Source of the DNA: Lepidodermella squamata
Lineage: Eukaryota > Animalia > Gastrotricha
DNA: 64,000 nucleotides
NCBI GenBank assembly: GCA_047495785.1
Contig: JBLDXI010000060.1
Location: forward strand, 186,001 to 250,000
Direction: 5' to 3'
Under the pieces are notes generated by a model. It was given only the letters and a program-made list of their open reading frames with translations, made no database searches and was not told the origin of the DNA. The translations under genes were made by a program, and so were the position numbers. Of the stretch, positions 4,148 to 64,000 are shown piece by piece; position 1 is the stretch's first letter, and every line of letters starts with the position of its first letter.

Positions 4148-5520
4148 TTTATCAAAGAATAAAGTAGATGTTCTAGAAAAAAATCGAGAATTGAAGGGAA
4201 GATGAAGATTTTTAAGTTGGTATTCAGAAACAGAAAAGAGACCGTCCTCAAGAAAAGCGCAATCGAAAGAGCAGACTCGTTAAAACAAATCGTCATATAA
4301 AAGCAATGCACAACTTTGCTAGTCGGCGTGCACAAGGTTATTATCTAATCACAAGGTGCCAAAATCCCACTATGTTACAATTATGATTCATCTTTAATTT
4401 TGTAATTGCGATAATGTATTTTTAGCTGGAATGACACAGGCATAGACTGAAATCTTATCAGATTTATGAACGCAGTCGCCTTTCGTTCGCGCCAACTCTG
4501 TGACTCACATTGTGTGAAGATTCCGCAAGTCTTTTTGAAACCAGATGCCAAATTGCAGAGAGTTCAAAGCTAATCCAAGAACTTTGGCTATAACTGCAGG
4601 GTGCGATCATGGATCCAGGAACTGTTGAAGAAATGAAAAATGCAGTTCTCCATGTTCCTCAAAATTACTTGTAATTCCCGCTGAAAATGGTTCAAACTTT
4701 TCAAAATTGACTGAATAGCGGGATAGATTTCCGTTCAGATTTCCAATAAATTGCAGGGTGTTCGATTTAAGTTTGAAAATGAAGATACTACCTTTGACCT
4801 TTGATAATGAGTTGATAACACCTCTTGGAAGTTTGATTTCAAACATTTTCATTTTCTTCCATTTTTGTAAAATCCATGACCCAAGACTCAGGGTTAAACA
4901 ACGGTTTAGCGATAGCGAATCGGTAGAACATCGAGCAAATAGGCACTAGGCACTATTTACTTACCATGGAGAACGTTCTCTAAGGTACTTACAGATTTCA
5001 CACATTTTTTGGTTGTATGCGCGTCACTTTTCCGCTTAAAAATTCCATTACAAGAATTTAATATTTTATCAAGATACGGGATTACGCGCAAACCTATACC
5101 CTGCCGGAGCAGGGCTTTAAGACAACATTGCAACACATGGAATCAGATAGTAGCAGGGCTCTCTCTAAGTAACTCTTGGAAGCACAAGGAATTTTTGCCA
5201 AACGAAATACCCGCCAATGACCGCATTTCCATCCCATCAGCGTCTTGCCCCATCCCTGTCCACTAAGCTCTTCCTTATCGCCGCTACAAATTGCCGCAGC
5301 CACCCTAAAATAATCATTTATCACACCTTCCGTAGTCCACTGTTAAGGATTATCCTCTTACGGCATGTTTATTTTGAGGGGGCCGTCGTTTTTGCGGAAA
5401 TTGCCATCAGAAGTTAACAGCAGGCTGTAAAAAATTAGCATCGCGATAATTTCTGTTTGACGTAATACCCACAGAGCCATTTTTGTGCCGATAGCTAACA
5501 GGAGCGAATTATTGATAAGT

Positions 5521-7224
5521 ATGTCTGTGCCAAAAATTGTGGAAAAGGATGGCGAATTGACGACAGATCACTACAGAAAAAGGCACGCTGTTTCAGGTGA
5601 CAGGAGAGCAGATTCATACTCAGAAAAGTCGGATGTTGCTGATCAACCAGGGAAAAGAAAGCGACGGGGCGAACCTGAGGACCAGTCGCCAGCCTCCAAG
5701 AATTCCAAACTTGACGAGCCAGAGCTTTTCGTTCGAAGTAATCAAGCGAACAGAGAAGCCACTGCAAGTTCAAAGCAATCAAACATTGAAGCTGCGACTA
5801 GTCGCCAAGCAGACAGGAAGCCTTCTTCACAACCTGAAGACCAGGACTCCAAAGTGCTTTTCTTCGCAGAGCATCACTTGCAGGTCGACATTTTCGTTAC
5901 AGGCGAAGACGTCCGCGGCCGAATCAGCAACAAGAACGCAACCTACTCCGATGCTTTTCTCCAGCAGCTTCGAGATGATTTGAATGCAACGAAGTCTAAA
6001 TTGGACAAGTACTACATTGATGGTGAGCGAGAAAACCGGGCTAAATGGGCTTGGAATAAATTTCAAGGTATCTCCGATGTTTACCGCGATCTTCGATTTC
6101 GCATCCAGAAAGAATTCAACGGGCAAATTGTGACAAATGCTTGGATGAAGTACTTTGAAATCATCAGGCACTATGGGCTGATACCCTCTGATTGGCGGGT
6201 TTATGATGAAACCAGGCACAACCATCGTCATGAAGACCAGGACGATGATGGCAGGGTGTTTACAGCGTTCTTCAACGCAGAACTGCCTGGAGCAGCTGTT
6301 TGCGCTTTCAACCACTACATGAAGACGCGAGCTCGAAGACTTCCTTTCGAATGGTGGGCGTCCAGTTTAGCCCCGGATGTGGACGAGGCGAGTGAATCCC
6401 TCAATAACAACTGCCTTGGCGATCAATACGGGTTGTATGAACGCAACAAAGACCGCTGGCTTATGGAGATTGGAAATTCTCCAGCCGAGCGGAACAACGG
6501 CGATGCTACAGTCCTAAAGAACCTTCTGGATTTCGAGGCCAAAATCGGGCCACCATCTGCCGTTCGCGGGGTGGATTTCTACAGCCATGATGCCGGTATT
6601 GATGTAAGTGAGGGGCAAGAGGGCGAACTTGGCTTCAACCAGCAGGAGCTAGCAAACGCCAAGATTCATCTCGGCTGTGCTCTAGCTGGATTTCTGACGC
6701 TGAAAAAGGGCGGCACTTTCATCGCGAAACAGTACACCTTTTTCGAGACATTCACCTGGAATCTGATCTTGATCTACGCGTCCCTGTTTCGCGAGTTCAA
6801 AATCTGTAAACCGCTCACGTCCCGGCCGAGAAACAGTGAAATCTACCTCGTTGGTAAGGGATTCAAAGGCCTGCCAAATGAAGTTCGAGACGTTTTAACT
6901 GAACGGCTAGAAAACTTCACCACAGATCCATTTATTTCGGAGAAGGACGTCGAAGCCAATTTTTCGCAGCCGTTTGCCTGCATTCAGCGATTCGCAGATC
7001 GAGTTTTCCGAAAACAGCAAATTCGGTGTATCGAGTCAAACATCGCCCTATACGAGGCTAATCGCTGGGATTTGCGGGATTTGGAGCAAAAGGTCGGCGA
7101 GGTTAAGACGGAACGTGTCGATAAATGGATCAACGACTACGAAATCAAGCCTCTCGCTGATACGGAGAAAAACTGGATTCCAAGTCTACAGCAGGATAGA
7201 AAATTCGCCTACCGTAGAAAATAA
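5521..7224 (+). CDS. FtsJ/RrmJ-like RNA (cap) 2'-O-methyltransferase, asfarvirus pEP424R-like; copy A1, intact, CDS without introns
   Basis: Motifs NGQIVTNAWMK, AFFNAELPG, WWASSL, DQYGLY..N.DRWLM, NNGD, YSHDAGID, GGTFIAKQYT, KPLTSRPRNSEIYLVGK give a full K-D-K-E tetrad. Low-complexity N-terminus with GKRKRR. First ATG is at 5521. Confidence 0.88.
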   Translation: MSVPKIVEKDGELTTDHYRKRHAVSGDRRADSYSEKSDVADQPGKRKRRGEPEDQSPASKNSKLDEPELFVRSNQANREATASSKQSNIEAATSRQADRKPSSQPEDQDSKVLFFAEHHLQVDIFVTGEDVRGRISNKNATYSDAFLQQLRDDLNATKSKLDKYYIDGERENRAKWAWNKFQGISDVYRDLRFRIQKEFNGQIVTNAWMKYFEIIRHYGLIPSDWRVYDETRHNHRHEDQDDDGRVFTAFFNAELPGAAVCAFNHYMKTRARRLPFEWWASSLAPDVDEASESLNNNCLGDQYGLYERNKDRWLMEIGNSPAERNNGDATVLKNLLDFEAKIGPPSAVRGVDFYSHDAGIDVSEGQEGELGFNQQELANAKIHLGCALAGFLTLKKGGTFIAKQYTFFETFTWNLILIYASLFREFKICKPLTSRPRNSEIYLVGKGFKGLPNEVRDVLTERLENFTTDPFISEKDVEANFSQPFACIQRFADRVFRKQQIRCIESNIALYEANRWDLRDLEQKVGEVKTERVDKWINDYEIKPLADTEKNWIPSLQQDRKFAYRRK

Positions 7225-7292
7225 TCAATCGAAATAAAACCTGAGCATTAAATTACTGTTATTTGATTTAGACAATTTAATAAAGCTGAAAT

Positions 7293-8562
7293 ATGGATTT
7301 GGATATGGTTGATAATTTCGAGGAAGTCAAACTTCCTAAAATTGATGTTAGAGATATTGAGCGTTACTTGGACCTGGACACGGGTAGATACGACGAGCCT
7401 GGTTTGATGGATCTGAGAGGAGTTCTGATGCCACTTCGTGAAAGATGTTACGTCGATAACCGCGAATTCAGTCAAGAAACAGACCTGCTGCACGGCTTAA
7501 AGCCGCATATTGAGTCTCGATTCAATGGCCAAGCCGTAACAAATGGATGGTTGAAGTTCTACGAGGTCACAGGCCACTACAATCTGATTCAGCGTAGTCG
7601 GGAGGATCGCTTTATTGCTTTCCACAATGCAGCTTTGATAGGTTTTCAGTAAAATATACAGAACTCTGCACGGATTAAATGTTTCTTCTACAGGAGGTGC
7701 TTTAAGCGCTTATAACCATATGGTTAAAACTAAACCTCTGAAAGAGAGAGCAGGCTATGATTGGTATGCCTCCGACTTGATGGAGGAAACCAGACGCATG
7801 GACTGTTACAGGTTCTACCGCAGTAACGTCGGGAAATGGTTGTTTTCGAATCGAAACGACGGCGATTGTCGCAAGGTTTCCACTGTCCGAGATTTCGAAA
7901 GCCGAATCGGCCCTAAATCACAAGTAGGTGGTGTTGACCTGTGCTACCATGACTGCGCAACAAATGCCTCATCCGACCCTGAGTACGATCAGGAAAGAGT
8001 CGATGCGCAAGCTCATCTTGGATGTGCCCTGTCTGCGTTTCTAACTCTGAGAGATGGAGGGTCATTTGTAGCAGCCCAGTTCACCTACTTCCAAACGTTG
8101 ACTTGGAATTTGATCCTTATCTACGCAGCGCTTTTCGATGAATTTTACTTGTGCAAGCCAGTTGCGTCTCGCTCAAGGAATAGCGAGGTCTACTTTGTCG
8201 GAAAAGGTTACAAGAAAATGCCTAAATGGCTTGAAGACAAATTGATGTGCCGCTTGGAGAAGTTCACGTTAACGCCGATTCTAGCAAAACAGGTGTTGGA
8301 TGATAAAGGAGAAATCGGTCGCGCTATCAAGCTAATCGTCGAATTTTGCCACAAAATTTCCGGCCGACAAATGGTAGTTCTACGCCGCAATCGTGAGCTT
8401 TACGATACTAATTGCAGTGATCTTCGATCGCTGATGCGTGAGCCTGCGGAAACAAGCAAGAATCAGTGGTTAGCTAGCAACCTTGTTGCCCGTCTTGACG
8501 ATGCCAACTGGCTCCCGCCTGGTAAAATTCCCCAGCAGCGTGGTCGAAATTATCGATTTTAG
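7293..8562 (+). CDS. FtsJ-like methyltransferase paralog B1 (catalytic Lys lost), 2 exons 7293-7641 and 7694-8562
   Basis: A 52-bp GT-AG intron (7642-7693) joins ORFs 7293 and 7720 in frame (AALIG|GALSAYNHM). Motifs TNGWLK, YHDCAT, FVAAQFT (K to A), NSEVY. Confidence 0.85.
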
Positions 8563-8701
8563 ACCATGCCACACCATCTTCGCAATAAGACGCAATTTCG
8601 TGACGTCAACTAAATGATGTTATCCGATTTCGAATATAAACCGAGAATAGGCTTCTATTTCGTTCATCCCTGCTCTCTTTAAATATTTTTAGGTATCAAT
8701 T

Positions 8702-9994
8702 ATGGCTGACACCTTCAGGGAAGTGAGACTTCCGCCAATCGAACTTGAGGCTATCAGGCATTTTTTAGCTGCTGATGGCGAGCAGGATTACAATGAGCCT
8801 CAACTATTCGCCCTGCGGGCCCCGTTGATGCAAACGAGGAAGGATTTTTACATCGATAATTTCAGATTCAACGTAGTAATTGATCCCTTACATCAAGCTA
8901 GGCTCACCATCAAGCAGAATTATCGCGGTCAAAATGTGACAAATGGGTGGATGAAATTCTACGAAGTCGCGAGTCACTTCGATCTGGTGAACTGTGTTGG
9001 CAACAAGTTCCTTGCATTTCACAACGCAGCATTTCCAGGTTTGAAGTTTGAACATTGGAGCTAATTCTTGGATTTTTATCACAAAAATTGTGCACCAGGC
9101 GGAGCTTTGAGTGCTTACAACCATATGATTAAGACTGAGCCCGATCGCGAAAAGTATGAGTGGTTCGCGTCAGATATGTGGAGTCAAATCGTTGACCCTG
9201 ATGAAACAGAGCCAACAGATGAATACGGATTTTACAGAAAGAATAGAGATAAGTGGCTAATGTCAAGTTCGAACAGTGGCGACTGTAGGTTTGTCGAGAC
9301 AGTTCGCGGATTCCAAAAGGCTATTGGACCTAGGTCAGAGCATGGCGGTGTTGATTTTTGCTACCACGATGCCTCCACTAACGTTGCGGGGAATGAGGAT
9401 TATGACCACGAGACAGTAGACGCCCACGCCCATCTCGGATGCGCACTGGCTGCGTTTCTTACGCTTAAGGAGGGTGGCTCTTTCGCGGCTGCGCAGTTCA
9501 CGTGCTTCCAAACGATGACGTGGAACCTGATCCTCATTTACTCAGCCTTATTCGAAGAGTTTTATGTCTGCAAACCAGTTTCTTCTCGGTCGAAAAACAG
9601 CGAAGTTTATTTGGTTGGCAAAAAATTCAAGGGGCTTCCTCCATGGCTGGAGGACGTTTTGATGCAGCGTTTGATGCAGCCACTGAGCGACTTTTCGATG
9701 AAGCCCATATTGAAGAAAGATGTATTAGACGACAAAGATGGTTATATTGGAGAATCCATCGAGAAGATCATGGGTTTCTACTCAAACGTAGCTAAAACGC
9801 AGATTGAAGTTTTACACCGAAACCAAAAGCTTTACGAAAAGTATGAACAGGCAGGCTTAGATGCTTTGGGCCCGGATCTTCTAAATTCATTTGCAAATTT
9901 ATCGAATCAATGGATTCAGGAAAATAAGCCACGCGATTTGGCGTATTCCGATCGGCTACCTCACATCCCATTTCGCAAGCCACCAAACCACTAA
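8702..9994 (+). CDS. FtsJ-like methyltransferase paralog C1 (catalytic Lys lost), 2 exons 8702-9038 and 9099-9994
   Basis: 60-bp GT-AG intron 9039-9098 at the same codon and phase as in B; it contains an in-frame stop. Motifs TNGWMK, YHDAST, FAAAQFT, NSEVY. Confidence 0.85.
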
Positions 9995-10349
9995 TACCTA
10001 ATAATAATTAACGACAATTATTCGCTTTATTATTCCAAGCTAAAAAAGAAGTCGATTCGTTGAGGGAATTTATTTGTGAGTAATAACTCATCTACTTATT
10101 CATATTTCTCAATCAAACTTCTAATTCGTTTAAATCACAAAGTGATGCAAAACATGTTTATGATTGCACGTGGTGCCAAAATAAACTACGATCTTGACGC
10201 TGAGATTTAACTCACATGACTTATGCAGCCATATTATTGATAAAAGCGTTGAAACTGACATTTATTCGCTCGCAGATCCGGCGTTTTGCACCCCATATTT
10301 CGGCAGATGAATTCCGAGTAATATAACAAAGCATCATAATGACGCGTGA

Positions 10350-10685
10350 AGCCTAACCAGTACGCCTAATGTCTAGTCGAAGGAGACGTCGATTCAAAGA
10401 AATTGAACAGTAGCAATTACTTCGTAAAAAAAATGCTAAGTCTTGTAATGGCTGTAGCATAACCTCTATAGTGGTTAATAAGCAAATTTTCCAATCGTTC
10501 CTGGTCTGTATTTGCTTTCGTCAATGCATGAAGCAAGCTGAAACCTGTAATCAGCGACATGACAAGGCTGGGAACAGCCACCGCGATTTGCTGATTGATG
10601 GGATTGCCATCTAGCACTGCGAGTATGAAAACCGAAGCTAAGAGTACTGTGTACTGATGCATTATTGGCAAGTATGGGCAAGTAC
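10350..10685 (-). pseudogene. Truncated duplicate of the 3' end (TM6-TM7 and 3'UTR) of the class C GPCR at 25730-28196
   Basis: FILAVLDGNPINQQIAVAV..LLHALTKANTDQE matches the GPCR C-terminus; UTR string gtctagtcgaagg.gacgtcgattcaaagaaattgaacagta is shared with ~25627. Confidence 0.9.
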
Positions 10686-10900
10686 GCTGGTTTTACCGCT
10701 GGTTCAGCCAGACGGTAGTTGGTTTTTTATAGGTGGACCAGTATCCTCCTTGACGTGTATTATTTTTTTGTAAGGAGTACGCGAAGGACGCACAGACTCA
10801 TATCCTCCTTACAAAAAAATAATACACGTCAAGGAGGATACTGGTCCACCTATAAAAAACCAACTAACGTCTGGCTGAACCAGCGGTAAAACCAGCGTAC
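10682..10900. mobile_element. Hairpin MITE, 96-bp inverted arms with 27-nt spacer, possible TA target duplication (Tc1/mariner-type)
   Basis: 10682-10777 is the reverse complement of 10805-10900 with one mismatch; TA|cgctgg...ccagcg|TA. Confidence 0.8.
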
Positions 10901-11023
10901 GCGCAGCCTGAGGCACGCGTCCGGCTCCTTATGAGTTGATTAATCTTGATTAATCACCAAATCTGATTTAGCCACGATTTTCGATTTTCGCACCGTCGCA
11001 TCAGTGTTTTATGCTACTGCCGC

Positions 11024-11523
11024 AGAAAATAATTTTTACGTGAATCTCAAGTTTTGAGAAGCGAGTGCGCGCGCTCATAAACTGGCGCGCAAAATCTAAG
11101 GTGCGCGTAAAACTTTTTTAGTTTAATTTTTTCGCGCGAGAACCCCATATTCAATCGATAGAGAATTGTCTGAATTATTTTTTGGTATAAAAACCGCCGA
11201 GATATTCAAAAGTAACCCTTTAGCATCTTCGCGCGCGGTATTAAATATGTTAAAAATCAATGAAACTGATGCGCGTGAGCCAAGTTCTGATTTTTAACAA
11301 ATTTGTTACCGTGCGCGAAGATGCTAAAGGGTTACTTTTGAATATCTCGGCGGTTTTTATACCAAAAAATAATTCAGACAATTCTCTATCGATTGAATAT
11401 GGGGTTCTCGCGCGAAAAAATTAAACTAAAAAAGTTTTACGCGCACCTTAGATTTTGCGCGCCAGTTTATGAGCGCGCGCACTCGCTTCTCAAAACTTGA
11501 GATTCACGTAAAAATTATTTTCT
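11024..11523. repeat. 500-bp palindrome (foldback), ~217-bp near-perfect arms
   Basis: agaaaataatttttacgtg...cgcgcggta is mirrored by taccgtgcgcg...cacgtaaaaattattttct; related sub-repeats continue to ~11960. Confidence 0.9.
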
Positions 11524-12921
11524 TTAATTTTATCACGCTAGAAGCATATATCATTTAATAGAGAATTGCCTCCTCTTCATTTTGGTGTAAAAACCGCCAA
11601 AAAAATCAAAACTAGTCTTTTGACATTAGCGCGCGCGGCTCTGGATTTGATGAAAATTTCGACTTAGCGTTTTGCGCTAAGTCCACTTTTACCCTCCAAT
11701 TGCGCAACCGACGCGCGCGCGCCGGACGGAACTACGATGGGCCCGGAAGTGAGCATGCCGAATGAACGCGTAATGTCGCAACGAACGTTCGATTTGAACA
11801 AATTCAGCATTTCCGACATGAAACGTGTGACCTGCCACAAGCCGTAAGAGCTCATTTTGAGTTCGCACAAACCGTTATGCGTTATGCATTCGCATCATTT
11901 TTATCAAAAAATAAGCAAATAAGGCTAACACATTAGGTCGGCTAAGGTGCGCGTAAACCTTCTTCGCTGTAATGTTAACGTAATGTTTTCTGATAGTATC
12001 AGTGAATCCTTAAAGTTGTAAATAACTTGGTAAACACTTTTGGTCAACTCTTAACTCCATGATGCCGCCATGCTGGAGTGACCTAGGGGGGTGGGAGGGG
12101 GGGGGGGGGCTCTAGCTTCACGAAGTCAGCAGCATTCAGTTGCGTCATTCTAAGTTGCGTTTATTTTCCCCGTCAACTGTCAAAGGCCGAATGCCGACAG
12201 TGGTAATCTATGGTGTAAATACATAGCCAGTTATTGACACCTAGTGGGTGTACTAGTCACTTATTGACACCCACTTATTGGGGTGCAGATAGCCACTTCC
12301 TTCTTTTACTGTTGTATAATGTATAATCCACGACTCAAGACTTGGACTTAAAACACGCAATTGCGAATGTGAATCAGTCCAACATTAGACATAGGCTGTA
12401 TTTACAGACAGCCGCATTTTTTTGTTCGAATTGCGCGTCACTCTTCCGCTCTAAAATTCCATTACAAGAATTTAATATTTTATCAAGATACGGGATTACG
12501 CGCAAACCTATACCCTGCCGGAGCAGGGCTTTAAGACAACATTGCAACAAATGGAATCAGATAGTAGCTAGCCCATAGCTCTTGGAAGCCCATGGAAGTT
12601 TTGCCTTAAGGAATACCAACCAATGACCGCTTAAATAATTTCCTCTTTTTCATCCCGTCAGTGTCTTGCCCCATCCCTATCCACTAAGCTCTTCCATATC
12701 GCCGCGACAAACTGCCGAAACCACCGTGAAATAATAATTTATCACATCTTCCGTAGTCAGCTGTTAGGGATTTTCATCTTACGGCTATCGTTCTCCCGGA
12801 AATTGCCGTCAGAAGTTAACAGCAGGCTGTAAAAAATTAGCATCGCGATAATTTCTGTTTGACGTAATACCCACAGAGCCATGTTTTGCCGATAGCTAAC
12901 AGGAGCAAATTATTGATAAGT

Positions 12922-14547
12922 ATGTCTGCGCCACAAATTGTGGAGAAGGACGGCGAATTGACGACTGATCACTACAGAAAAAGGCACGCCGGTTATGAGG
13001 ACAGGAGCAGAGGAGAAAAGCCCGATGCTGTTGATCAACAAGGGAAAAGAAAGCGACGGGGCGAACCTGAGGACCAGTCGCCAGCCTCCAAGAATTCCAA
13101 ACTTGACGAGCCAGAGCTTTTCGTTCGAAGTAATCAAGCGAACAGAGAAGCCAATACTACAAGTACAAAGCAATCAAACATTGAAGCTGCGACTAGTCGT
13201 CAAGCAGACAGGAAGCCACCTTCACAACCTGAAGACCAGGACTCCAAAGTGCTTTTCTTCGCAGAGCATCATTTGCAAGTCGACATTCTTGTTAAAGGCG
13301 ATGACGTCCGCGGCCGAATCAGCAACGGCAATGCAATGTACTCCGATGCTTTCCTCGAACAGATTCGTGATGGTTTGAATGCAACGAAGTCTAAATTGGA
13401 CAAGTACTACATTGATGGCAAGCGAGACAGCCAAGCCAAATCGAGTTGGAACAAATTTCAAGGTATCTCCGATGTTTACCACGATCTTCGATTTCGCATC
13501 CAGAAAGAATTCAACGGGCAAATTGTGACAAATGCTTGGATGAAGTACTTTGAGATCATCAGGCACTATGGGCTGATACCCTCTGACTGGCGGGTTTATG
13601 ATGAAACCAGGCACAACCATCGTCATGAAGACCAGGACGACGAGGGCAGAGTGTTTACAGCATTCTTCAACGCAGAACTGCCTGGAGCAGCTGTTTGCGC
13701 GTTCAACCACTACATGAAGACGCGAGCTCGAAGACTTCCTTTCGAATGGTGGGCGTCCAGTTTAGCCCCGGATGTCGACGAGGCTAGTGAATCCCTCAAT
13801 AACAACTGCCTTGGCGATCAATAAGGGTTGTATGAACGCAACAAAGACCGCTGGCTTATGGAGATTGGAAATTCTCCAGCCGAGCGGAACAACGGCGATG
13901 CTACAGTCCTAAAGAACCTTCTGGATTTCGAGGCCAAAATCGGGCCACCATCTGCCGTTCGCGGGGTGGATTTCTACAGCCATGATGCCGGTATTGATGT
14001 AAGTGAGGGGCAAGAGGGCGAACTTGGCTTCAACCAGCAGGAGCTGGCAAACGCAAAGATTCATCTCGGCTGTGCTTTGGCTGGATTTCTGACGCTGAAA
14101 AAGGGCGGCACTTTCATCGCGAAACAGTACACCTTTTTCGAGACATTCACCTGGAATCTGATCTTGATCTACGCGTCCCTGTTTCGCGAAGGCCTGCTAA
14201 ATGAAGTTCGAGACGTTTTAACTGAACGGCTAGAAAACTTCACCACAGATCCATTTATTTCGGAGAAGGACGTCGAAGCCAATTTTTCGCAGCCGTTTGC
14301 CTGCATTCAGCGATTCGCAGATCGAGTTTTCCGAAAACAGCAAATTCGGTGTATCGAGTCAAACATCGCCCTATACGAGGCTAATCGCTGGGATTTGCGG
14401 GATTTGGAGCAAAAGGTCGGCGAGGTTAAGACGGAACGTGTCGATAAATGGATCAACGACTACGAAATCAAGCCTCTCGCTGATACGGAGAAAAACTGGA
14501 TTCCATTTCTACAGAAGGATAGACAATTCGCCTACCGCAGGAGATGA
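12922..14547 (+). pseudogene. Methyltransferase copy A2
   Basis: Near-identical to A1; TAC>TAA stop at 13822-13824 and a 72-bp in-frame deletion removing KPLTSRPRNSEIYLVGK, which includes the catalytic Glu. Confidence 0.9.
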
Positions 14548-15464
14548 TGAATTTAGAATAAAACTTAAGAGTTCAATTACGGTTTGTATTTGATTTAGAC
14601 AATTTAATAAAACTTGAAGATGGATATGGATATCATGGTTGACAGTTTCGAGGAAGTCAAACTTCCAAAAATTGAGCTTAGTGATGTTGAGCGCTATCTG
14701 GATTTTGAATCTGATAATTACACTGAGCCTCGTTTGATGGATCTGATGCCACACGTGAAGAGGATTCAATGAAGCAACCGACCTTTTGCATGATTTTAAG
14801 TCAGAGATAATGTCTCGCTTTAACGGCAAAGCTGTAACAAATGGCTGGCTGAAATTCTACGAGGTCACATATCACTACAACCTGATTCAGCGTAGTCGGG
14901 AGGATGGCTTCATTGCTTTCCACAATTCAGCTCTACCAGGTTAATATGTACGCAAATATCAGAGCTCCGGAAACCTTGAATATTTCTAACAGGTGGTGCT
15001 TTAAGCGCGTACAACCATATGATAAAAAGCCGCTGCATGAGCGGGCCGGGTATGATTGGTACGCCTGAGATACGCAATGGCAAACTAGCCATTTTGATCA
15101 TTCGGGTTTCTATCGTAATAACATCGGAAAATGGTGCTACCATGACTGCGCAACCAGTGCTAAATCCGACCCTGAGTACGACCAGGATAGAGTCGATGCG
15201 CAAGCTCATCTTGGTGCCTTGCTAACCCTACGAGATGGAGGGTCATTTATAGCAGCCCAGTTTACTTATTTCCAAACGTGTTAGTGGAACCAGTGAATCC
15301 ACAATTATCTGATTGGTCGGGTGGTTTCAAGTCTGTGATTGGTTGGTTCGAAGAGCACGTGACACGCATGGTTCGAGGGGTGGGTTTAATTTTTGTCTGC
15401 GATCATGAAATATGAAATGTAGCGGAATTTGCAAAAATTACTGTTTATGGCAAAATATCGAGCA

Positions 15465-15534
15465 AGGCTCAGGGGGATCGAACCTTCAATTTTCTGCTAC
15501 CTGGGCAGACACTCTATCACTAAGCTACTTTTCC
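15465..15534 (-). pseudogene. Degenerate tRNA-like gene (AGG at the anticodon position)
   Basis: A-box TAGCTTAGTGATAGAG, stem TCTGC-CCAGGTA-GCAGA, B-box GGTTCGATCC, downstream TTTT; acceptor stem poorly paired. Confidence 0.6.
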
Positions 15535-15605
15535 TGTGGCTTAGATGGCCATTCAGTCCCAAATTTAAGCTGCCGAAGCAAACAATTCGTGGGAAAAAAC
15601 TGTTT

Positions 15606-15678
15606 TGTAAGATACGGATGCCGATCCCGTTGCCTCTCGCATGTTAAGCGAGCGCTCTACCATTTGAGCTAATGCCCC
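15606..15678 (-). pseudogene. tRNA-Ala(AGC)-derived pseudogene with anticodon changed to AAC
   Basis: GGGGCATTAGCTCAAATGGTAGAGCGCTCGC-TTAACAT-GCGAGAGG is a eukaryotic tRNA-Ala body; T-loop and acceptor 3' strand are decayed; T6 run downstream. Confidence 0.75.
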
Positions 15679-15754
15679 ATGTATTTGAGTCAATATTTAT
15701 TACTAAAGGCATTCTCAACAATAAACGTAAAACTAGCAGTAAGTTTTTGAAAAG

Positions 15755-15846
15755 TTGGCGCCCTTCGGGAGACTCGAACCCCAGAAACTGTGATTAACTG
15801 CTCACGGGAGACCAGGGTTCGATTCCCTGTCAAGAGGTAGCTTTTT
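15755..15846. pseudogene. Two divergent tRNA 3' halves (one minus strand; one Asp-like, plus strand) with their 5' halves deleted
   Basis: Minus: CTGGGGTTCGAGTCTCCCGAAGGGCGCCA then TTTT. Plus: CACGGGAGACCAGGGTTCGATTCCCTGTCAAGAG then TTTTT. Confidence 0.6.
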
Positions 15847-15893
15847 CCTCGATTTTGAAGCTGAACTATGCGTGTTGGCCAAAAATGTCCAAC

Positions 15894-15966
15894 CGCCCGA
15901 TGTGGGGCTCGAACCCACGACCCTGGGATTAAGAGTCCCATGCTCTACCGACTGAGCTAACCGGGC
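15894..15966 (-). tRNA. tRNA-Lys(CTT), intact
   Basis: GCCCGGTTAGCTCAGTCGGTAGAGCATGGGACTCTTAATCCCAGGGTCGTGGGTTCGAGCCCCACATCGGGCG: 73-nt canonical cloverleaf with a T5 terminator at 15881-15885. Confidence 0.96.
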
Positions 15967-16735
15967 TGAGACCGATCTACATTTCATATTTCCTTACTGG
16001 TATTACTTCTGGATTAAAAGCAATCGCAGAAAAAATTAAGTGGTTCGTGTCGCGTGCTCTTTGAACCAACCAATCACAGACTTGAAACCACCCGACCAAT
16101 CAGATAATTGTAGAATCACTGGTTCCACTAAGGTTGACTTGGAATTTGATCCTTGTCTACGCAGCCTTTTTTGAAGAATTTCATCTTTGCGAACCAGTTG
16201 CGTCTCGCTCGAGAAATAGCGAAATAGCGAGAAAAAGCTACAAAAAAGCTCCGAAATGGCTCGTAGAAAAATTGATGAAGTGTTGAAAGGAATAAGGCGT
16301 TTTCGTTAACACCGATTCTAGCGAAAGAAGTTTTCGATGATAATGGCAAATTGGGTCAGGCTATCAAGACGATATCGTCGACTTTAGCCGCACAATTTCC
16401 GATCGACAGATGGATTTGTTGCGGCGTAATCGAGATCTTTACGAGGAAAATCTAGGCGATCTACGGTTGCGTATGCATGAGGCTGTCGAAGTTTGCAAAC
16501 GTCAATGGTTATTTAACAATCCCGTCTTCCGCCTTGGCGATGCCGATTGGCTGCCACCTGGTAAAAATCCACAACAGCGTGGTCGAAATTATCGATCCTA
16601 GACCTTGCTTAACCACCCCCGCAATTAGACACAATTTCTTGACGTCAGCAAAATGATTTCATTTGATTTCTAATACAACTCGAAAATAGGCATGTTTCTT
16701 TAATCCCTTCCTTGTAATCTATTTAGGTATCAATT

Positions 16736-17985
16736 ATGGCTGACACCTTCAGAGAAGTGAAACTTCCAGCAATCGATCTAGAGGCTATCAGGCATTTCTT
16801 TGCTCCAGAAAACGCGGAAGATTACATTGAGCCTCAATTATTCAACAAACGGGAACCTTTGATACAAGCCAGGAGGAGGTTTTACATCGATGATTTAGAA
16901 TTCAACAAATTAGTTGATCCTCTGGAAGTAGCTAAACGTACCATTAGAGCGGTACACAAAGGTCAAAGTGTGACAAATGGTTGGATGAAATTCTACGAAG
17001 TCGCGAGTCACTACGAACTGGTGAGCTGTGCAGGCAACAAGTTCGTTGCATTTCACAACGCAGCATTTCCAGGTAAGTTTCAAAGTTGGGCCTAACTCTT
17101 GGATTCTACAGTCGACAGTTCGCATCAGGTGGAGCTTTGAGTGCGTACAATCATATGACCAAGAAAAAGCCAGATCGCGAAAATTACCACTGGTTCGCGT
17201 CGGATTTGTGGAGTCAAATTGCTGAACCTGATAAAACAGAGCCGTATACGACAAATACGGATTCTACAAAGAGAATCAAAATAAGTGGCTGATGTCAAGT
17301 AAGAACAATGGAGACTGTAGGTTAGTCGAGACTGTTCGCGGTTTCCAACAAGCTATGGGACCTGATTCAAAGAATGGCGGAGTCGATTTTTGCTACCACG
17401 ATGCTGCTACTGACGTTGCCAGTGATGGGGATGACTATGACCACGAGACAGCAGACGCCCACGCCCATCTAGGATGCGCACTGGCTGCGTTTCTTACACT
17501 CTTTTGCGGCTGCGCAGTTCACATGCTTCCAAACTCTGACGTGGAACCTTATCCTGATTTACTCGGTTTTATTCGAAGAGTTTTACATTTGTAAACCAGT
17601 CTCCTCTCGGTCGAAGAATAGTGAAGTTTATTTGATTGGAAGAAAATTCAAGGGGCTTGAAGAGTGTCCATGGCTTGAGGTCGGTTTGATGCGGCGACTG
17701 GAGCGTTTTTCGATGAAGCCTATCTTATCGGAGGATGTTTTGAACGATCATGATGGTTTTATTGGAGAAGCCATCGAGAAGATCGTGAATTTCTACACAA
17801 TCGCAGCCGAAACACAGATTGAAGTTTTACAGCAAAACCAACAGCTTTACGAAAGGTATGCACTGGCAGGCATGGAAGCTTTGGGCCCGGGTCTTCGAAA
17901 TGCCCTTGCAGATATATCGAATCAATGGCTTCACAATAATCCTGTGCACAATTTGGCGTTTTCCGATCGTTTACCGCATACCTAA
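16736..17985 (+). pseudogene. Methyltransferase copy C2 (frameshifted)
   Basis: Homologous to C1 with intron 17073-17128; frame breaks near 17245 and 17500 (LKEGG deleted). Confidence 0.85.
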
Positions 17986-18232
17986 TTTCACAATCCATCG
18001 AACCACTGAGACACGTTAATTCATGACAAATTGGATAAAACTAGTCGCTTTTATTCCAATCTAAAAAAGTGAAATCAATTCGCTGAGTGAACCATCTCGC
18101 TAAGTGAGCCATCGCTAAGTGAAAAAGTATTAATCACACAGTGATGTAAAACATGTTATTGCTAGCAAATGACGCCAAAATAAACTACCATATTTTCACT
18201 GATCTTTGATTAAATGAATCACTAGCCACAGA

Positions 18233-18798: not shown

Positions 18799-18949
18799 GC
18801 CACAGAGAGCGAAGTACCGCTAGGGATGGTAGGGATCATACCTACCAGTTCCATCGATCCGCAAGGTGAACCCAGTCAAAGACCAAAGGGGGACCCTTGT
18901 GTCGATTTTTGTGATCCCTACCATAGTTCTGCTGTCCTACTTCGCTTAC

Positions 18950-19984: not shown

Positions 19985-20060
19985 ATATGACGGGGAACTT
20001 CCCCGTTGTCGTGGGGCGCGTTCCGTCCGTCCGTCCGTCCGTACGTACGTCAAGCTTGCG
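19985..20060. repeat. Short hairpin plus (GTCC)n microsatellite, resembling the end of a Helentron/DINE-like non-autonomous element
   Basis: gacggggaacttccccgttgtc stem-loop followed by ccgtccgtccgtccgtccgtacgtacgtc. Confidence 0.45.
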
Positions 20061-21694
20061 CAGTAATTCAGCACGTCGGTCGCGCACTCCTACGTATGAC
20101 GAAGGAGGATACGTAGCTGTCCTCTGTGTGCGCAGTAATTCCGCACGTTGTCCGCGCACTATGCAGTTCTCCTGAACACGAACCTCTAGCACGAGCCGCT
20201 TGTTCCACTTAACGTAACGTGCGGCCGGGCATGAGCAATACAACCTTGAGACTAATACGTATGAACTCAACACTCGCGCATTTTGCATGCGTTTTGTGCG
20301 GCGAACGCGCAGCGATTACACCGACGTGCGCTCGACTGACAGCGTGGTGCGCGCGCCCACGTGCTGACCCGCTCTCCACTGTTTTTCTACTGCAGTGGCG
20401 CCCGGGCGACACTTAGGTAATTTTTGGTCACTTGTACGCGGGTTAGCTTCGCGATGGTAAGTGATATTAGACAGCGGTAAAAAGCCTTTGAAAGCCCAAC
20501 TAACAATCTATGGGATAGCGTTGACACGGCATAGTGCCGTATTGCTGACTTACAGGGTAGTTCCGCGAAGAGAGGACCCAGTTATGGCAGGTGGCCGGTT
20601 TTATTACTCGGCTATTGGAGCTCGGCGGCGAAACCGAAAAATTATTCCTGATGAGTGGTTCGCCCAGTGCACTCGAGGCGGTCTACATCAACCACATGAA
20701 GACGTGCGTGAAATGCTAAAAGCAATTTGCCACCCGAACATCGCCCGATGCTACGCCGAAGAAGGTTTCGAAGCAGAGGATTTGGCTCCGTTGACGCCAA
20801 AATACCAACTTTTTTCCCTTTCAATTAGAAAAGACTCATCTAGAGTGTAATCCGACAGTCTAGTAAATGTTGATAATTTTGTTTCATATTAAACATCAAT
20901 CCTGCTCGTTTTGTTGCTGGAAGTTCCCCGTCACTGTCAAAGGCCGCCAGGCCGACAGTGTGTAATTTTACCATGCTGGGTTAAACCTCTCTCTTTTTCT
21001 GCTTACATTTTTTGCAGCCTGGAGCATACAGTGAAATTGGGCCGTAATCCAAGACTTAGATTACTTCCTGACTTCCTGAGACCAAGGCTCAAAAAAACGC
21101 CATTGTGATTTGCGATTGTAAATCGGTGTAATATCACAGGCCAATAGGCGCTCTGTACTTAAGACAGCCACGATTTTGTTGTTGAATTGCGCATCTCTCT
21201 TCCGATTTAAAATTCCACGAATTTAATATTTCATCGAGATGCGGGGTTGCGCGCTATACACCGTCGGAGTAGGGCTCTACGATGACATTGCAGCACACGG
21301 AATCAGATAGTAGCTAGGCCCTAACTCTTGGAAGCCCACGGAACTTTTCCCTGAAGATATACCAAACAATGACCATTTCTTCTTGATGGCAACATTTTTT
21401 TAATCCCGTCAGCGTCTTGCCCCATCTCTGTCCACTAAGCTCTTCCTTATCGCCGTTACTAATAGCCGTAGCCACCCTAAAATCATCGTTTATCACACCT
21501 TCCGTAGTCCACTATTAAGGATAATCCTCTTACGGCATGTTTATTTTGCGGGGGCCGTCCTTTCCGCGGAAATTGCAGTAAAAAGTTAACGGCAGGCTGT
21601 AAAATAATTAGCATCGTGATAACTTCAGCTAGACGTAATACCCACAGGGCTATTTTTTACCGATAGCTTGCACAAGCAAATTATAGATATATGT

Positions 21695-23400
21695 ATGTCT
21701 GCGGATGAAGTGCCAAAAATTGTTGAGAATGATGGCGAATTGACAACGGATCACTACAGAAAAAGTCAAGCTGGTTTAGAGGACAGGAGACCAGATTCGT
21801 ACGCAGAAAAGCCCGAAGCTGCTAATCAACAAGTGAAAAGAAAGCCATGGGGTGAAGCCGAGGATCAGTCTTCAGCCTCTAAGTATTCCAAGCTTGGCGA
21901 GGCCGAGTCTTTCGTTCAAAATGATCTTCGAGCGAACATAAGACGACAGTCAAATTCCAAAGAATCAAACCTTGAAGCTGCGACTAGCCGTCAAGCGGAC
22001 ATGAAGCGACCCGAATACCAGGACTCCAAAGTGCTTTTCTTCGCAGAGCATCACTTGCAGGTCGACATTTTCGTTACAGGCGATGACGTCCGCGGCCGGA
22101 TCAGCAAAAAAACGCAACGTACTCCGATGCTTCTCTGCAACAGCTTCGCGATGATTTGAATGCAACGAAGTCTAAATTGGACAAGTACTACATTGATGGT
22201 GAGCGAGACAACCGGGCTAAATGGGCTTGGAATAAATTTCAAGGTATCTCCGATGTTTACCACGATCTTCGATTTCGCATCCAGAAAGAATTCAACGGGC
22301 AAATTGTGACAAATGCTTGGATGAAGTACTTTGAAATCATCAGGCACTATGGGCTGATACCCTCTGACTGGCGGGTTTATGATGAAACCAGGCACAACCA
22401 TCGTCATGAAGACCAGGACGACGAGGGCAGAGTGTTTACAGCATTCTTCAACGCAGAACTGCCTGGAGCAGCTGTTTGCGCGTTCAACCACTACATGAAG
22501 ACGCGAGCTCGAAGACTTCCTTTCGAATGGTGGGCGTCCAGTTTAGCCCCGGATGTCGACGAGGCTAGTGAATCCCTCAATAACAACTGCCTTGGCGATC
22601 AATAAGGGTTGTATGAACGCAACAAAGACCGCTGGCTTATGGAGATTGGAAATTCTCCAGCCGAGCGGAACAACGGCGATGCTACAGTCCTAAAGAACCT
22701 TCTGGATTTCGAGGCCAAAATCGGGCCACCATCTGCCGTTCGCGGGGTGGATTTCTACAGCCATGATGCCGGTATTGATGTAAGTGAGGGGCAAGAGGGC
22801 GAACTTGGCTTCAACCAGCAGGAGCTGGCAAACGCAAAGATTCATCTCGGCTGTGCTTTGGCTGGATTTCTGACGCTGAAAAAGGGCGGCACTTTCATCG
22901 CGAAACAGTACACCTTTTTCGAGACATTCACCTGGAATCTGATCTTGATCTACGCGTCCCTGTTTCGCGAGTTCAAAATCTGTAAACCGCTCACGTCCCG
23001 GCCGAGAAACAGTGAAATTTATCTCGTTGGTAAGGGATTCAAAGGCCTGCCAAATGAAGTTCGAGACGTTTTAACTGAACGGCTGGAAAACTTCACCACA
23101 GATCCATTTATTTCGGAGAAGGACGTCGAAGCCAATTTTTCGTAGCCGTTCGCCTGCATCCAGCGATTCGCAGAGCGTGTGTTTCGGAAACAGCAAATTC
23201 GGTGTATCGAGTCGAACATCGCATTGTACGAAGCTAGTCGCTGGGATTTGCGGGATTTGGAGCAAAAGGTCGGCGAAGTTAAGACGGAACGTCTAGATAA
23301 ATGGATCAGCGACTACGAAATCAAGCCTCTGGCTGACACGGAGAAAACTGGATTCCATTTCTACAGAAGGATAGAAAATACGCCTACCGTGAAAAATGAT
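21695..23400 (+). pseudogene. Methyltransferase copy A3
   Basis: Frameshift in an A-run near 22110, the same TAA as A2 (22603-22605), an extra TAG at 23143-23145 and a further frameshift near the end. Confidence 0.9.
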
Positions 23401-23469
23401 AGGTCAGAATGAAACCAAAGAATTCAATTATACTGTTATTTGATTTAGGCAATTTAATAAAGCTAAAAT

Positions 23470-23996
23470 ATGGATTTGGATATGGTTGATGGAGGATGGT
23501 TTTATTGCTTTCCACAATTCAGCTTTGATAGGTTTTTCAGTAAATTATACAGAAATCTGAAGAGAATATCTGCACAGCGCTTTTCGACGAATTTTACCTT
23601 TGCAAGCCAGCTGCGTCTCACTCGAGGAATAGGTAGGTCTACTTCGTAGGAAAAGGTTACAGGAAAATCGATTGAAGAAAAATTGATGTGCCGCTTGGAG
23701 AAGTTCACGTTAACGCCGATTCTAGCAAAACAGGTTTTGGATCGATGATAAGGGGGAAATTGGTCAGGCTATCAATCTGATCGCCCAATTTTGCACAAGA
23801 TTTCCGGTCGACAAATGTTAGTTTACGACGTTATCAAGAGCTTTACGATGCTAATCGCAGCGATTTTTGATCGTTAGTACATGAGCCTGCGGAAACAGGC
23901 AAGACTCAGCTAGCAATCCTCTTAGCAGTCTTGACGATGCCGCTTGGCTGACGCCTGGTAAAACGCCCTAACAGCGTGGTCGAAACTATCGATTTG
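23470..23996 (+). pseudogene. Methyltransferase copy B3, heavily deleted relic
   Basis: Retains atggatttggatatggttgat, the intron donor region and the C-terminal cagcgtggtcgaaa; large internal deletions. Confidence 0.85.
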
Positions 23997-24102
23997 ACCA
24001 TCCTACCAATAAGATACGATTTCTTGATCTGAGCGAAACGAATTCATTTTATTTCACTTATAAACTATTCCTTTCTGTATCTCATTTTAGGTGGTATCAA
24101 TA

Positions 24103-25415
24103 ATGACAGATATTTTTAGGAAAGTGAAACTAACAAAAATCGATCTTGGGGCTTTAGAGAATGTTTTAGCTCAAGATAAATCGGAAGATTACGATGAGCC
24201 AAAACTATTGAAACTGAAGGAATCGTTGTTTCAAGCGATGAGGGATTGTTACATCAATGATCAAAAATTTACACAATCAACTGATCCCTTGTTTAAAGCT
24301 ATCCCGGAAATAGTGCATCAGTACAATGGTCAATGTGTAACGAATGGCTGGCTGAAATTCTACGAAGTCGCGAGTCACTTCAAACTGGTTAATTGCACAA
24401 GCGACAAGTTTATAGCATTTCACAACGCTGCTTTTCCAGGTTAGTTGGAACATGGGACCTGAATCTACGATTCTACTATGAAAATTTCTGATCAGGCGGG
24501 GCTTTGAGTGCGTACAATCACATGATTAAGACTAAGCCCGATCCTGACAAGTATGACTGGTTTGCGTCAGATTTATGGGAGAAAATCGTCGATCCTAGTA
24601 AATACGACAAAGATGAGCCGAAAGATGATTATGGATTCTACAGAGGCAATCAATCCAAGTGGCTGATGTCACGCAAGAACAGTGGAGACTGTACGTTAGT
24701 CGAGACTGTTCGCGGATTCAAAAAAGCTATTGGGCCTGGTTCAACGCATGGCGGTGTTGATTTTTGCTATCACGATGCCGCTACCTACGTTGGCAATGAC
24801 GAGGATCATGACCATGAAAAAGCAGAAGCGCATGCCCACCTAGGATGCGCACTGGCTGCGTTTCTTACGCTCAAGAAGGGTGGCTCTTTTGTGGCTGCGC
24901 AGTTCACATGCTTCCAAACACTGACGTGGAACCTGATTCTAATCTACTCTGCCTTATTCGAAGAGTTTTATCTCTGCAAGCCAGTATCTTCTCGTTCGAA
25001 AAACAGTGAGGTTTTTTTGATTGGAAAACATTTCAAGGGGCTTGAAGACTGTCAATGGCTTGAGAATGCTTTGATGGGGCGGCTGGAACAATTTTCTATG
25101 AAACCAATCTTATCGAAGAACGTTTTAGAGGATCAGGGTCGCTTTATCGAATCGATAAACCAGATCGTGGGTTTCTACACTGAAGCAGCCGAAAACCAGA
25201 TTGCAGTTTTACACCGAAACAAACAGCTTTACAATATTTTTGCACCGACACTCTGTGTGGGCGAGGAGCTTGAAAATGAACTGATTAATACAAGGAAACG
25301 CTGGTTTCAAAGCAATACGATAACCTATTTGGGAAAGCATGTTTGGTTGCCAAACAGCGATAAACGAAACCTCCAATCTAGTAAAAAGCCTGAATATTCA
25401 GGGAAAGTCTTATGA
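24103..25415 (+). CDS. FtsJ-like methyltransferase paralog C3, intact, 2 exons 24103-24439 and 24496-25415
   Basis: A 56-bp intron (24440-24495) joins the two ORFs in frame (AAFPG|GALSAYNHM); FVAAQFT (K to A). Confidence 0.85.
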
Positions 25416-25729
25416 AGCGATCAATATTCAAGCCAAGTCGATTTGTTAAGGATTTCTATTTGAAAAAAACCAAGCAAAAATAATCAACAACCTTGGGTTA
25501 ATGTGTTAGCGTGCCTGCTTGCCCTTTTGATCCTGAAATTGATTTCCAAAATAAAATAATGCAAATTACTTTTATTAAGCAACATAGCAAAGAAATAGCG
25601 TAGGAGCCTTAACCGGTACGTCTAGTGTCTAGTCGAAGGGGACGTCGATTCAAAGAAATTGAACAGTATTAATTATTTCAAAAATGTCGATAGTCTTGTA
25701 ATCAGTGTAGCATTACCACTCCTGCCTAA

Positions 25730-63960: not shown

Positions 63961-64000
63961 GAAACGGTATCACATATATTATAAGATCGCAAGGAAAATG

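What the first reader, a model, noticed from the sequence alone, without database searches (positions are those of the whole stretch)
4990..25450. Tandemly triplicated three-gene cassette of asfarvirus-like FtsJ RNA methyltransferases in an animal genome
Seen: nine paralogous loci arranged (A-B-C)x3, four intact, embedded among ordinary intron-containing animal genes. Recalled from memory and needing alignment: the motif string QIVTNAWxK / NxELPG / WxASSL / DxYGLY..N.D.WLM / NNGD / KP.SSR..NSE / KQQI follows African swine fever virus pEP424R more closely than animal CMTR1/CMTR2. Inference: a large-DNA-virus cap or RNA 2'-O-methyltransferase was captured, domesticated and amplified. I recognised no other viral genes nearby, so this looks like a retained gene family rather than a provirus remnant.
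Basis: partly seen in the sequence, partly recalled or inferred. Interest (0 to 1): 0.92.

Follow-up and report, generated by a model that had tools for sequence, protein, structure and literature searches.

The report
Animal keeps captured giant-virus cap methyltransferases
A small-intron invertebrate genome carries a thrice-repeated block of three genes most similar to the RNA-cap methyltransferase of asfarvirus-type giant viruses, likely taken up long ago, in which one gene keeps the full catalytic site and two lack a catalytic lysine yet stay intact, so a viral enzyme has likely become a host enzyme with likely non-catalytic partners.

Summary
Confirmed: nine FtsJ-type paralogues lie as (A-B-C)x3 at 5.5-25.4 kb; A1, B1, C1 and C3 are intact. 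A1 matches ASFV EP424R far better than human CMTR1 (E 2e-45 vs 9e-13). Its nearest relatives (50-55% identity) lie on giant-virus contigs, and no other gene of those contigs occurs in the window.

New points: (1) Only the A type keeps the K-D-K-E tetrad. B and C have Ala for the second Lys (254 of 256 covered homologues keep it), carry an intron, and C1/C3 are under purifying selection (dN/dS 0.37): likely pseudoenzymes. (2) A probable RNA run covers A1, B1 and C1 and splices the B1 intron. (3) Gene gaps of 68-139 nt, acceptor AGs before the ATGs and a non-genomic leader on a neighbouring gene suggest a trans-spliced operon. (4) Unnamed metagenome proteins are sisters to both A (96/98) and B/C (99/99, same Lys-to-Ala), so the system likely predates this species.

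Not shown: enzyme activity, substrate, A-B/C binding, host phylum, a tree with CMTR1/2. No report found in ten literature searches. New variant of a known kind; interest 0.76.

The parts
4985..5520 (+). Upstream region repeated before each A copy (77-83% identical to 12396-12921 and 21153-21694); likely promoter or outron, with a possible acceptor AG near 5474
   Evidence: low depth in run X1; function inferred
5521..7224 (+). A1: intact single-exon gene, 567 aa; K210-D357-K403-E440 tetrad and NAELPG motif; about 100 extra N-terminal residues with KRKRR at 45
7293..8562 (+). B1: intact, 405 aa, 52-nt intron 7642-7693; second catalytic Lys is Ala; NAALIG in place of NAELPG
   Evidence: intron skipped in a contig of run X1
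8702..9994 (+). C1: intact, 410 aa, 60-nt intron 9039-9098 at the same position as in B1; second catalytic Lys is Ala
   Evidence: splicing inferred from the frame, not seen as a joint
10350..10674 (-). Remnant of the 3' end of the class C GPCR gene that follows unit 3 (88% over 51 aa): the duplicated unit included host DNA
12922..14547 (+). A2 pseudogene: stop at 13822; 72-nt deletion at 14189 that removes the catalytic Glu segment
14620..16601 (+). B2 pseudogene, interrupted at 15281-16131 by an element with 86-bp terminal inverted repeats that holds a tRNA-Lys gene (15894-15966)
16736..18009 (+). C2 pseudogene: intron at the shared position, frameshifts near 17250 and 17498
21695..23399 (+). 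A3 pseudogene: two frameshifts, two stops, one of them shared with A2
   Evidence: both one-base gaps also appear in contigs of run X2
23470..23997 (+). B3 remnant with large deletions
24103..25415 (+). C3: intact, 418 aa, 56-nt intron 24440-24495; second catalytic Lys is Ala; 62% identical to C1
   Evidence: not covered by any laid reads
3929..4174 (-). Neighbouring small host gene (Pfam Ifi-6-16, E 2e-06, just under cut-off) whose contigs in two runs continue at an acceptor AG with a 22-23 nt sequence absent from the window: candidate spliced leader

Best explanation
The block is a host gene family likely derived from the mRNA cap 2'-O-methyltransferase of an asfuvirus-type giant virus, in which A is predicted to methylate cap-proximal ribose on host RNA and B and C likely act as non-catalytic RNA- or cap-binding partners. 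Shown: the nine loci, the catalytic residues of A1, their loss in B/C, the B1 intron and its splicing, host-like codon use, purifying selection on C, and the absence of neighbouring viral genes. Inferred steps: (1) capture from a virus in an ancestor, once or twice; (2) A gained a basic N-terminal extension, a possible nuclear signal; (3) the B/C ancestor lost the second Lys, gained an intron and duplicated; (4) A-B-C is transcribed as one unit and resolved by spliced-leader trans-splicing; (5) the unit, with the tail of a host GPCR gene, was tandemly triplicated and five copies decayed, while gene conversion homogenised the A cores. The likeliest substrate is the cap of the spliced-leader RNA or of mRNAs (cap1 or cap2), with SAM as donor; B/C would play in trans the part that the inactive second domain plays inside CMTR2. 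My odds: viral origin 0.9, A1 active on capped RNA 0.75, B/C catalytically impaired but functional 0.7, operon 0.6, B/C working with A 0.35.
For: Origin: EP424R E 2e-45 vs CMTR1 9e-13; model pLDDT 91, best fold EP424R TM 0.79 vs CMTR1 0.62-0.65; the best 120 of 187 hits are 336-496 aa, though proteins up to 993 aa were eligible, and the only two named to a virus are Pacmanvirus; Atlas top three clusters 75-94% viral; 6 of 6 related loci checked lie beside a herpes-type origin-binding helicase, 5 of 6 beside ribonucleotide reductase; trees place all four genes inside the Pacmanvirus-containing clade (100/98; 100/97). Host gene: B1 intron skipped in X1 but not in X2; GPCR tail duplicated with the unit; codon-use correlation with six host ORFs 0.34-0.54 vs -0.20 to 0.26 for ten viral homologues; 14 of 120 ORFs from 14 related loci hit the cassette, all of them the methyltransferase. 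Catalysis: EP424R tetrad K111-D228-K268-E305 and cap1 activity (PMC13059714, passages and section 8); A1 keeps all four. Pseudoenzymes: second Lys in 254 of 258 proteins held, 2 gaps, 2 Ala; C1-C3 dN/dS 0.37, core 0.22. Age: P0132/P0133 share the Ala and group with B/C (99/99; 97/97 without the motif columns), P0121 groups with A1 (96/98; 99/99). Operon: gaps of about 68-72 and 105-139 nt, AATAAA 9-10 nt after the A1 and A2 stops, AG 9-12 nt before each C start; candidate leader. Precedent for a needed inactive domain: hMTr2 (PMC3113572, passages).
Against: No activity or substrate was measured. Single EP424R tetrad mutants were reduced, and only the quadruple mutant was almost dead (PMC13059714, passages), so B/C may keep some activity. 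The Glu-to-Ala change in NAELPG is no mark of inactivity: 20 of 258 homologues lack that Glu and keep the Lys. A single origin of A and B/C is not shown: they never group, AU p 0.315 and 0.416 only fail to reject it, and shared rare residues are at chance level (5 vs median 5; 13% of control pairs reach the count). No CMTR1/CMTR2 row was in any tree and the root is my choice of outgroup. The leader was seen on one neighbouring gene only, not on A, B or C (table cut). X1 is only guessed to be RNA; X2 may be the assembly's own sample. C3 is intact although A3 and B3 are not, which fits obligate partnership poorly. The genomic setting of P0004/P0121 and P0132/P0133 is unknown; they could be viral.
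Confidence: 0.6

Rival explanations
1. Antiviral decoys: the captured genes serve defence. B and C would bind capped viral RNA or viral capping proteins without methylating them, or A would mark host RNA as self.
For: Copy gain and loss is rapid (5 of 9 broken). The window also holds an Ifi-6-16-like gene next to A1, a weak CD225/IFITM-like match in a tandem family at 58-64 kb (E 0.004) and several Ly6/Quiver genes; these families have antiviral members in vertebrates (recalled). Captured viral genes acting as restriction factors are known (recalled).
Against: C1-C3 dN/dS is below 1 in all three segments tested (0.22-0.55). The Pfam matches of the neighbours are under cut-off, and neighbourhood means little in an animal genome. 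No infection data.
Confidence: 0.17
2. B and C are still enzymes, with changed chemistry or target (a later cap position, or another RNA), so A, B and C build a multi-methylated cap in steps, as three enzymes do on the trypanosome leader.
For: B/C keep the first Lys, Asp and Glu, and the Asp that aligns with the SAM-adenine contact D201 of EP424R. Single EP424R mutants kept some activity. Virus-related enzymes for cap positions 2 and 3 exist in trypanosomes and a medusavirus (PMC13393146, first sixth of the text).
Against: The second Lys is one of two residues proposed to deprotonate the 2'-OH and is kept in 254 of 256 covered homologues; B/C also put Asp at a Ser kept in 249 of 250 covered homologues that contacts SAM in EP424R.
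Confidence: 0.15
3. A fast-evolving host CMTR2, inherited vertically and split or shortened, which only resembles the viral proteins.
For: EP424R was described as an outgroup of the hMTr2 clade (PMC3113572, passages). CMTR2 has one active and one inactive domain, as A and B/C have in two genes. The host's own CMTR1/2 could not be checked.
Against: A1 is 50-55% identical to proteins on virus-type contigs over more than 90% of its core. B/C also score best against those proteins and keep three of four catalytic residues. No recognisable CMTR2 came up among the best 120 hits or among the nine proteins of 560-1000 aa inspected from the 258 held.
Confidence: 0.04
4. A decaying endogenous virus fragment, a contaminant or an assembly artefact.
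For: Five of nine copies are broken; A2 and A3 are 100% identical over about 600 nt; contigs specific to unit 2 have about half the flank depth in X2 (weak).
Against: Spliced intron, host codon use, no other viral gene, purifying selection, C copies only 71-76% identical in DNA, and a diverged host GPCR tail inside the repeat.
Confidence: 0.04

Closest known systems
African swine fever virus pEP424R (cap1 2'-O-methyltransferase; PDB 9W7F, 9IQ4) and Pacmanvirus FtsJ-like methyltransferases
   Same: Single FtsJ-type domain with the same helical surround (TM 0.79, rmsd 2.6 A for the A1 model); K-D-K-E kept in A1; 47% and 44% identity to Pacmanvirus A23 and S19.
   Different: Lies in an animal genome with no other viral genes; A1 has a long basic N-terminal extension; B/C have an intron and lack the second Lys; nine tandem copies.
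Animal CMTR2 (hMTr2/FTSJD1)
   Same: Same wider family; a catalytic domain plus an essential inactive methyltransferase-like domain (PMC3113572, passages) resembles the A plus B/C pairing.
   Different: CMTR2 is one chain of about 770 aa; here active and inactive forms are separate genes of about 410-570 aa, all closer to viral proteins. Partnership is untested.
Animal CMTR1 (PDB 4N48)
   Same: Cap-specific 2'-O-methyltransferase fold (TM 0.62-0.65).
   Different: 17-19% identity; no G-patch or GTase-like domain found by Pfam in A1.
Trypanosome TbMTr2/TbMTr3
   Same: Virus-related cap methyltransferases used by a eukaryote on its spliced leader (PMC3113572, PMC13393146, passages).
   Different: Those are related to poxvirus VP39, not EP424R, and are in a protist; the substrate here is not known.
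Giant endogenous viral elements (e.g. Euglena gracilis, PMC12455990, search listing and start of abstract only)
   Same: Nucleocytoviricota DNA in a eukaryotic genome.
   Different: Those are large multi-gene inserts under erosion; here one gene type alone is kept, intronised, expressed and amplified.

Membership tests
FtsJ/RrmJ 2'-O-methyltransferases | Pfam FtsJ match above cut-off | tested here: met
   4 of 4 intact genes, 41.6-46.2 bits vs 24.1
FtsJ/RrmJ 2'-O-methyltransferases | K-D-K-E catalytic tetrad (A1) | tested here: met
   K210, D357, K403, E440
FtsJ/RrmJ 2'-O-methyltransferases | K-D-K-E catalytic tetrad (B1, C1, C3) | tested here: not met
   K-D-A-E in all three; the Ala is also readable in B2 and C2
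FtsJ/RrmJ 2'-O-methyltransferases | SAM-dependent ribose methylation in vitro | not testable with these tools
   needs recombinant protein
Asfuvirus EP424R-type cap methyltransferases | Best sequence and fold match is EP424R or Pacmanvirus type | tested here: met
Asfuvirus EP424R-type cap methyltransferases | Nests in a clade with Pacmanvirus, apart from other giant-virus homologues | tested here: met
   100/98, 100/97; ASFV itself and cellular CMTRs were not in the trees
Asfuvirus EP424R-type cap methyltransferases | Closest relatives lie in virus-type gene blocks | tested here: met
   origin-binding helicase in 6 of 6 loci, RNR small subunit in 5 of 6; that this block is typical of asfarviruses is recalled. 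Context of the sister rows P0121, P0132, P0133 unknown
CMTR1 | G-patch, GTase-like and WW domains, about 835 aa | tested here: not met
   FtsJ is the only Pfam family in A1
CMTR2 | Two methyltransferase-like domains in one chain of about 770 aa | tested here: not met
   one domain per gene; stops and poly(A)-like signals between genes
CMTR2 | Groups with animal CMTR2 in a tree | not tested
   no recognisable CMTR2 sequence was returned
Giant endogenous viral element | Several linked viral genes | tested here: not met
   of 120 ORFs from 14 related loci only the 14 methyltransferases and one weak kinase hit match the window
Spliced-leader operon | Same-strand genes about 100 nt apart with acceptor AG before each downstream start | tested here: met
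   gaps of about 68-72 and 105-139 nt; about 100 bp is the C. elegans figure (PMC7986045, passages)
Spliced-leader operon | Leader sequence on the 5' ends of the B and C mRNAs | tested here: inconclusive
   leader-like end seen only on a neighbouring gene; 151 loose ends were not shown

The most novel reading that the evidence does not exclude
An animal lineage with spliced-leader trans-splicing replaced or extended its cap-ribose methylation with an enzyme taken from an asfarvirus-like virus, and rebuilt the active-plus-inactive architecture of CMTR2 from it as an operon of one enzyme and two pseudoenzyme subunits that modify the leader cap; the system is shared by at least two deeply diverged species.
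Probability: 0.2. Interest if true: 0.92.

Novelty: new variant of a known kind. Interest (0 to 1): 0.76.

Why it matters
Functional capture of a Nucleocytoviricota gene by an animal is rarely documented, and this one touches core mRNA chemistry. Earlier phylogeny suggested that cap methyltransferases move between viruses and eukaryotes (PMC3113572); this would be a recent, dissectable case in an animal. It also records an asfarvirus-type infection in an invertebrate lineage. The Lys-to-Ala paralogues give a natural test of what an inactive cap-methyltransferase domain does, which is open for human CMTR2.

Tried and rejected
No whole genome is held, so CMTR1/2 and other copies could not be sought. 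A single-protein scan of viral contigs found nothing for A1 or P0004; this says nothing about their origin. A fold without alignment failed (pLDDT 33); the fold with alignment was used. Complex prediction of A1 with B1 (given as its two exon products) returned no answer (score 0.00); it is no evidence either way. The 'longer' search returned 6 viral-type fusions of 1264-1878 aa and no CMTR. Glu-to-Ala in NAELPG as a sign of inactivity: rejected. B/C as descendants of the viral clade with DNAAFPG: not supported, the two clades are apart. Shared rare residues as proof of one capture: at chance level. The first 81-row tree finished only in quick mode; I rely on the two 35-row careful trees, whose rows I picked by hand from those 81 and later hits. 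No run is on record as RNA; X4 gave no cover and X3 little. Reads were laid only on 3001-15400, so C2, A3, B3 and C3 are unchecked in place. The candidate leader was not found in the literature and the host phylum stays unidentified (one search gave only class C GPCR). Earlier scan findings: none. The A3 and B3 start coordinates used were off by one, so its 'first stop' line for A3 is not used. Supplements of papers were not read.
Full report
Observation. tblastn with A1 and self-blastn show nine same-strand paralogues in the order A1 B1 C1, A2 B2 C2, A3 B3 C3 between 5521 and 25415. A1 is one exon of 567 codons. B1, C1 and C3 are open once one GT-AG intron of 52, 60 or 56 nt is removed, at the same position in all three, inside the SAM-binding loop. 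A2, A3, B2, B3 and C2 carry stops, frameshifts or deletions. All four intact genes pass the Pfam FtsJ cut-off. The rest of the window is animal: a Cys-loop channel, Quiver/Ly6 genes, two class C GPCRs, a kinase, ankyrin and EGF proteins, with short introns seen directly in the sequence. The host phylum was not identified.

Origin. Against solved structures A1 scores E 2e-45 with ASFV EP424R and 9e-13 with human CMTR1. A model built from 98 sequences (pLDDT 91) matches EP424R at TM 0.79 and CMTR1 at 0.62-0.65. The homologue search found 187 proteins; the best 120 shown are 336-496 aa, although proteins up to 993 aa were eligible, reach 55% identity, and include Pacmanvirus A23 (47%) and S19 (44%). 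The top three Atlas clusters are 75-94% viral. Six related loci were annotated: all six carry a herpes-type origin-binding helicase nearby and five a ribonucleotide reductase small subunit; I recall this block as typical of asfarviruses. Two 35-row trees put A1, B1, C1 and C3 in the clade that holds Pacmanvirus (100/98; 100/97). Limits: the root is my outgroup of other giant-virus rows, and no ASFV, CMTR1 or CMTR2 row was available. Werner et al. place the ASFV protein as an outgroup to hMTr2 (PMC3113572, passages), so the wider family is shared with CMTR2, but the near kin are viral.

A host gene, not a provirus or contaminant. Of 120 ORFs from 14 related loci, only the 14 methyltransferases hit the cassette, plus one weak kinase match elsewhere. 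GC3 is 0.45-0.53 against 0.48-0.55 for six host ORFs, and codon use correlates with the host pool at 0.34-0.54 against -0.20 to 0.26 for ten viral homologues. A remnant of the 3' end of the GPCR that follows unit 3 also follows unit 1 (88% over 51 aa), so host DNA was duplicated with the unit. In run X1, guessed to be RNA, contigs cover A1, B1 and C1, drop to near zero between genes, and one skips exactly the 52-nt B1 intron, which a contig of run X2 retains. X2 shows both one-base gaps of A3, but may be the assembly's own sample. X1 also holds an A-type contig about 8% different from A2; of 24 listed differences 18 are at third positions, giving 17 synonymous and 6 replacement codons: a further allele or copy under purifying selection.

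One enzyme, two likely pseudoenzymes. EP424R makes cap1 and uses K111-D228-K268-E305 (PMC13059714, passages and section 8). A1 keeps all four as K210, D357, K403, E440. B1, C1 and C3 have Ala for the second Lys, Ala for the Glu of NAELPG and Asp for a Ser that contacts SAM in EP424R. Among 258 proteins held (some are near-duplicates), the second Lys is present in 254, gapped in 2 and Ala in 2; the Ser is present in 249, gapped in 8, Ala in 1; the Glu is replaced in 20 that keep the Lys, so that change alone means little. C1 and C3 differ at dS 0.72 with dN/dS 0.37, 0.22 in the core; B1 against C is saturated at synonymous sites with pN 0.32. So the B/C type is kept by selection without a full active site. 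Against full inactivity: single EP424R mutants were reduced, not dead.

A second holder. A profile search of 1.84 billion representatives found no close relative of B/C (best 233 bits). But the two Lys-to-Ala proteins, P0132 and P0133 (partial, unnamed, ENA contigs of 1425 and 775 bp), group with B/C at 99/99, and 97/97 with the motif columns dropped; P0121 (cluster of P0004, ENA contigs of 3-3.5 kb, with a basic N-terminal stretch) groups with A1 at 96/98 and 99/99. Both pairs are distant (about 44% and 52%). This suggests that another organism has both types, but their contigs could not be read and long branches are involved. Whether A and B/C come from one capture is open: a joint clade is not rejected (AU p 0.315, 0.416) and not recovered; all nine group members have Arg or Lys at one site where 10 other proteins do, but the overall count of shared rare residues is at chance level.

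Operon-like layout. A-to-B gaps are about 68-72 nt and B-to-C gaps about 105-139 nt in the three units. AATAAA follows the A1 and A2 stops by 9-10 nt. A conserved TATTTGATTTAG ends about 21 nt before each B start and a T-rich AG 9-12 nt before each C start. At 4174, contigs of two runs from two studies leave a neighbouring minus-strand gene at an acceptor AG and continue with TAGACACAAATCAAATTCGCAG (+ strand, as printed), which has no match in the 64 kb at three mismatches. I read this as a spliced leader; a distant 5' exon is the alternative. It was not seen on A, B or C.

History of the repeat. C copies are 71-76% identical in DNA over their blocks, so the triplication is old, yet A2 and A3 are 100% identical over three 200-nt bins, including a shared stop, with 82-88% in their 5' parts: recent gene conversion. 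B2 was later hit by an element with 86-bp inverted ends.

Mechanism. Most likely A methylates the 2'-OH of a cap-proximal nucleotide on host RNA, the leader or mRNA, with SAM; its extension with KRKRR could carry it to the nucleus. B and C likely bind RNA, cap or A without catalysis, like the inactive but essential second domain of hMTr2. Rivals are antiviral decoys (0.17), stepwise enzymes with altered chemistry (0.15), a divergent CMTR2 (0.04) and a relic or artefact (0.04).

Novelty. Ten literature searches found no report of an EP424R-type gene kept in an animal; the library lacks most subscription papers and I read no supplements. Virus-related cap enzymes in trypanosomes and giant-virus inserts in protists and fungi are known, so this is a new variant of a known kind. 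Interest 0.76.

Noticed in passing
window 4174, minus strand: A 22-23 nt leader-like sequence on contigs of runs X1 and X3, absent from the window and not found in three literature look-ups: possibly an undescribed spliced leader.
   Followed up: partly
window 15281-16131: Element with 86-bp terminal inverted repeats inserted in B2, holding a tRNA-Lys gene (15894-15966) and tRNA-like fragments.
   Followed up: partly
window 13836-14140 (run X1): An expressed-looking A-type contig about 8% diverged, mostly at synonymous sites: a further A copy or allele outside the window.
   Followed up: partly
window 11719-15310 (run X2): Contigs specific to unit 2 have depth 57-66 against roughly 100-130 in the flanks; unit 2 may be polymorphic, but contig depth is no copy number.
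   Followed up: no
window 58500-64000, minus strand: Three tandem paralogues (75-81% DNA identity) with a weak CD225/IFITM-like match (E 0.004).
   Followed up: partly
window 46369-47484: A 371-aa single-exon ORF with a signal-peptide-like start and no Pfam family at E 0.001 (a weak poly(A) polymerase head match, E 0.004, for the longer frame).
   Followed up: partly
window 25730-28223 and 41320-43840, minus strand: Two class C GPCR paralogues (58% identical) with very few introns.
   Followed up: partly
window 10682-10900 and 11024-11523: Two long near-perfect palindromes; the second is high-copy in run X2 (MITE-like).
   Followed up: no
proteins P0140, P0141, P0143, P0145; P0142: Giant-virus-type proteins in which this methyltransferase is fused with RNA polymerase subunit 2 domains, or with capping-enzyme domains.
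   Followed up: no
proteins P0189, P0206, P0207, P0208, P0222, P0223, P0254: A separate clade (100/99) of unnamed homologues with DNAAFPG-type loops that keep the catalytic Lys.
   Followed up: partly
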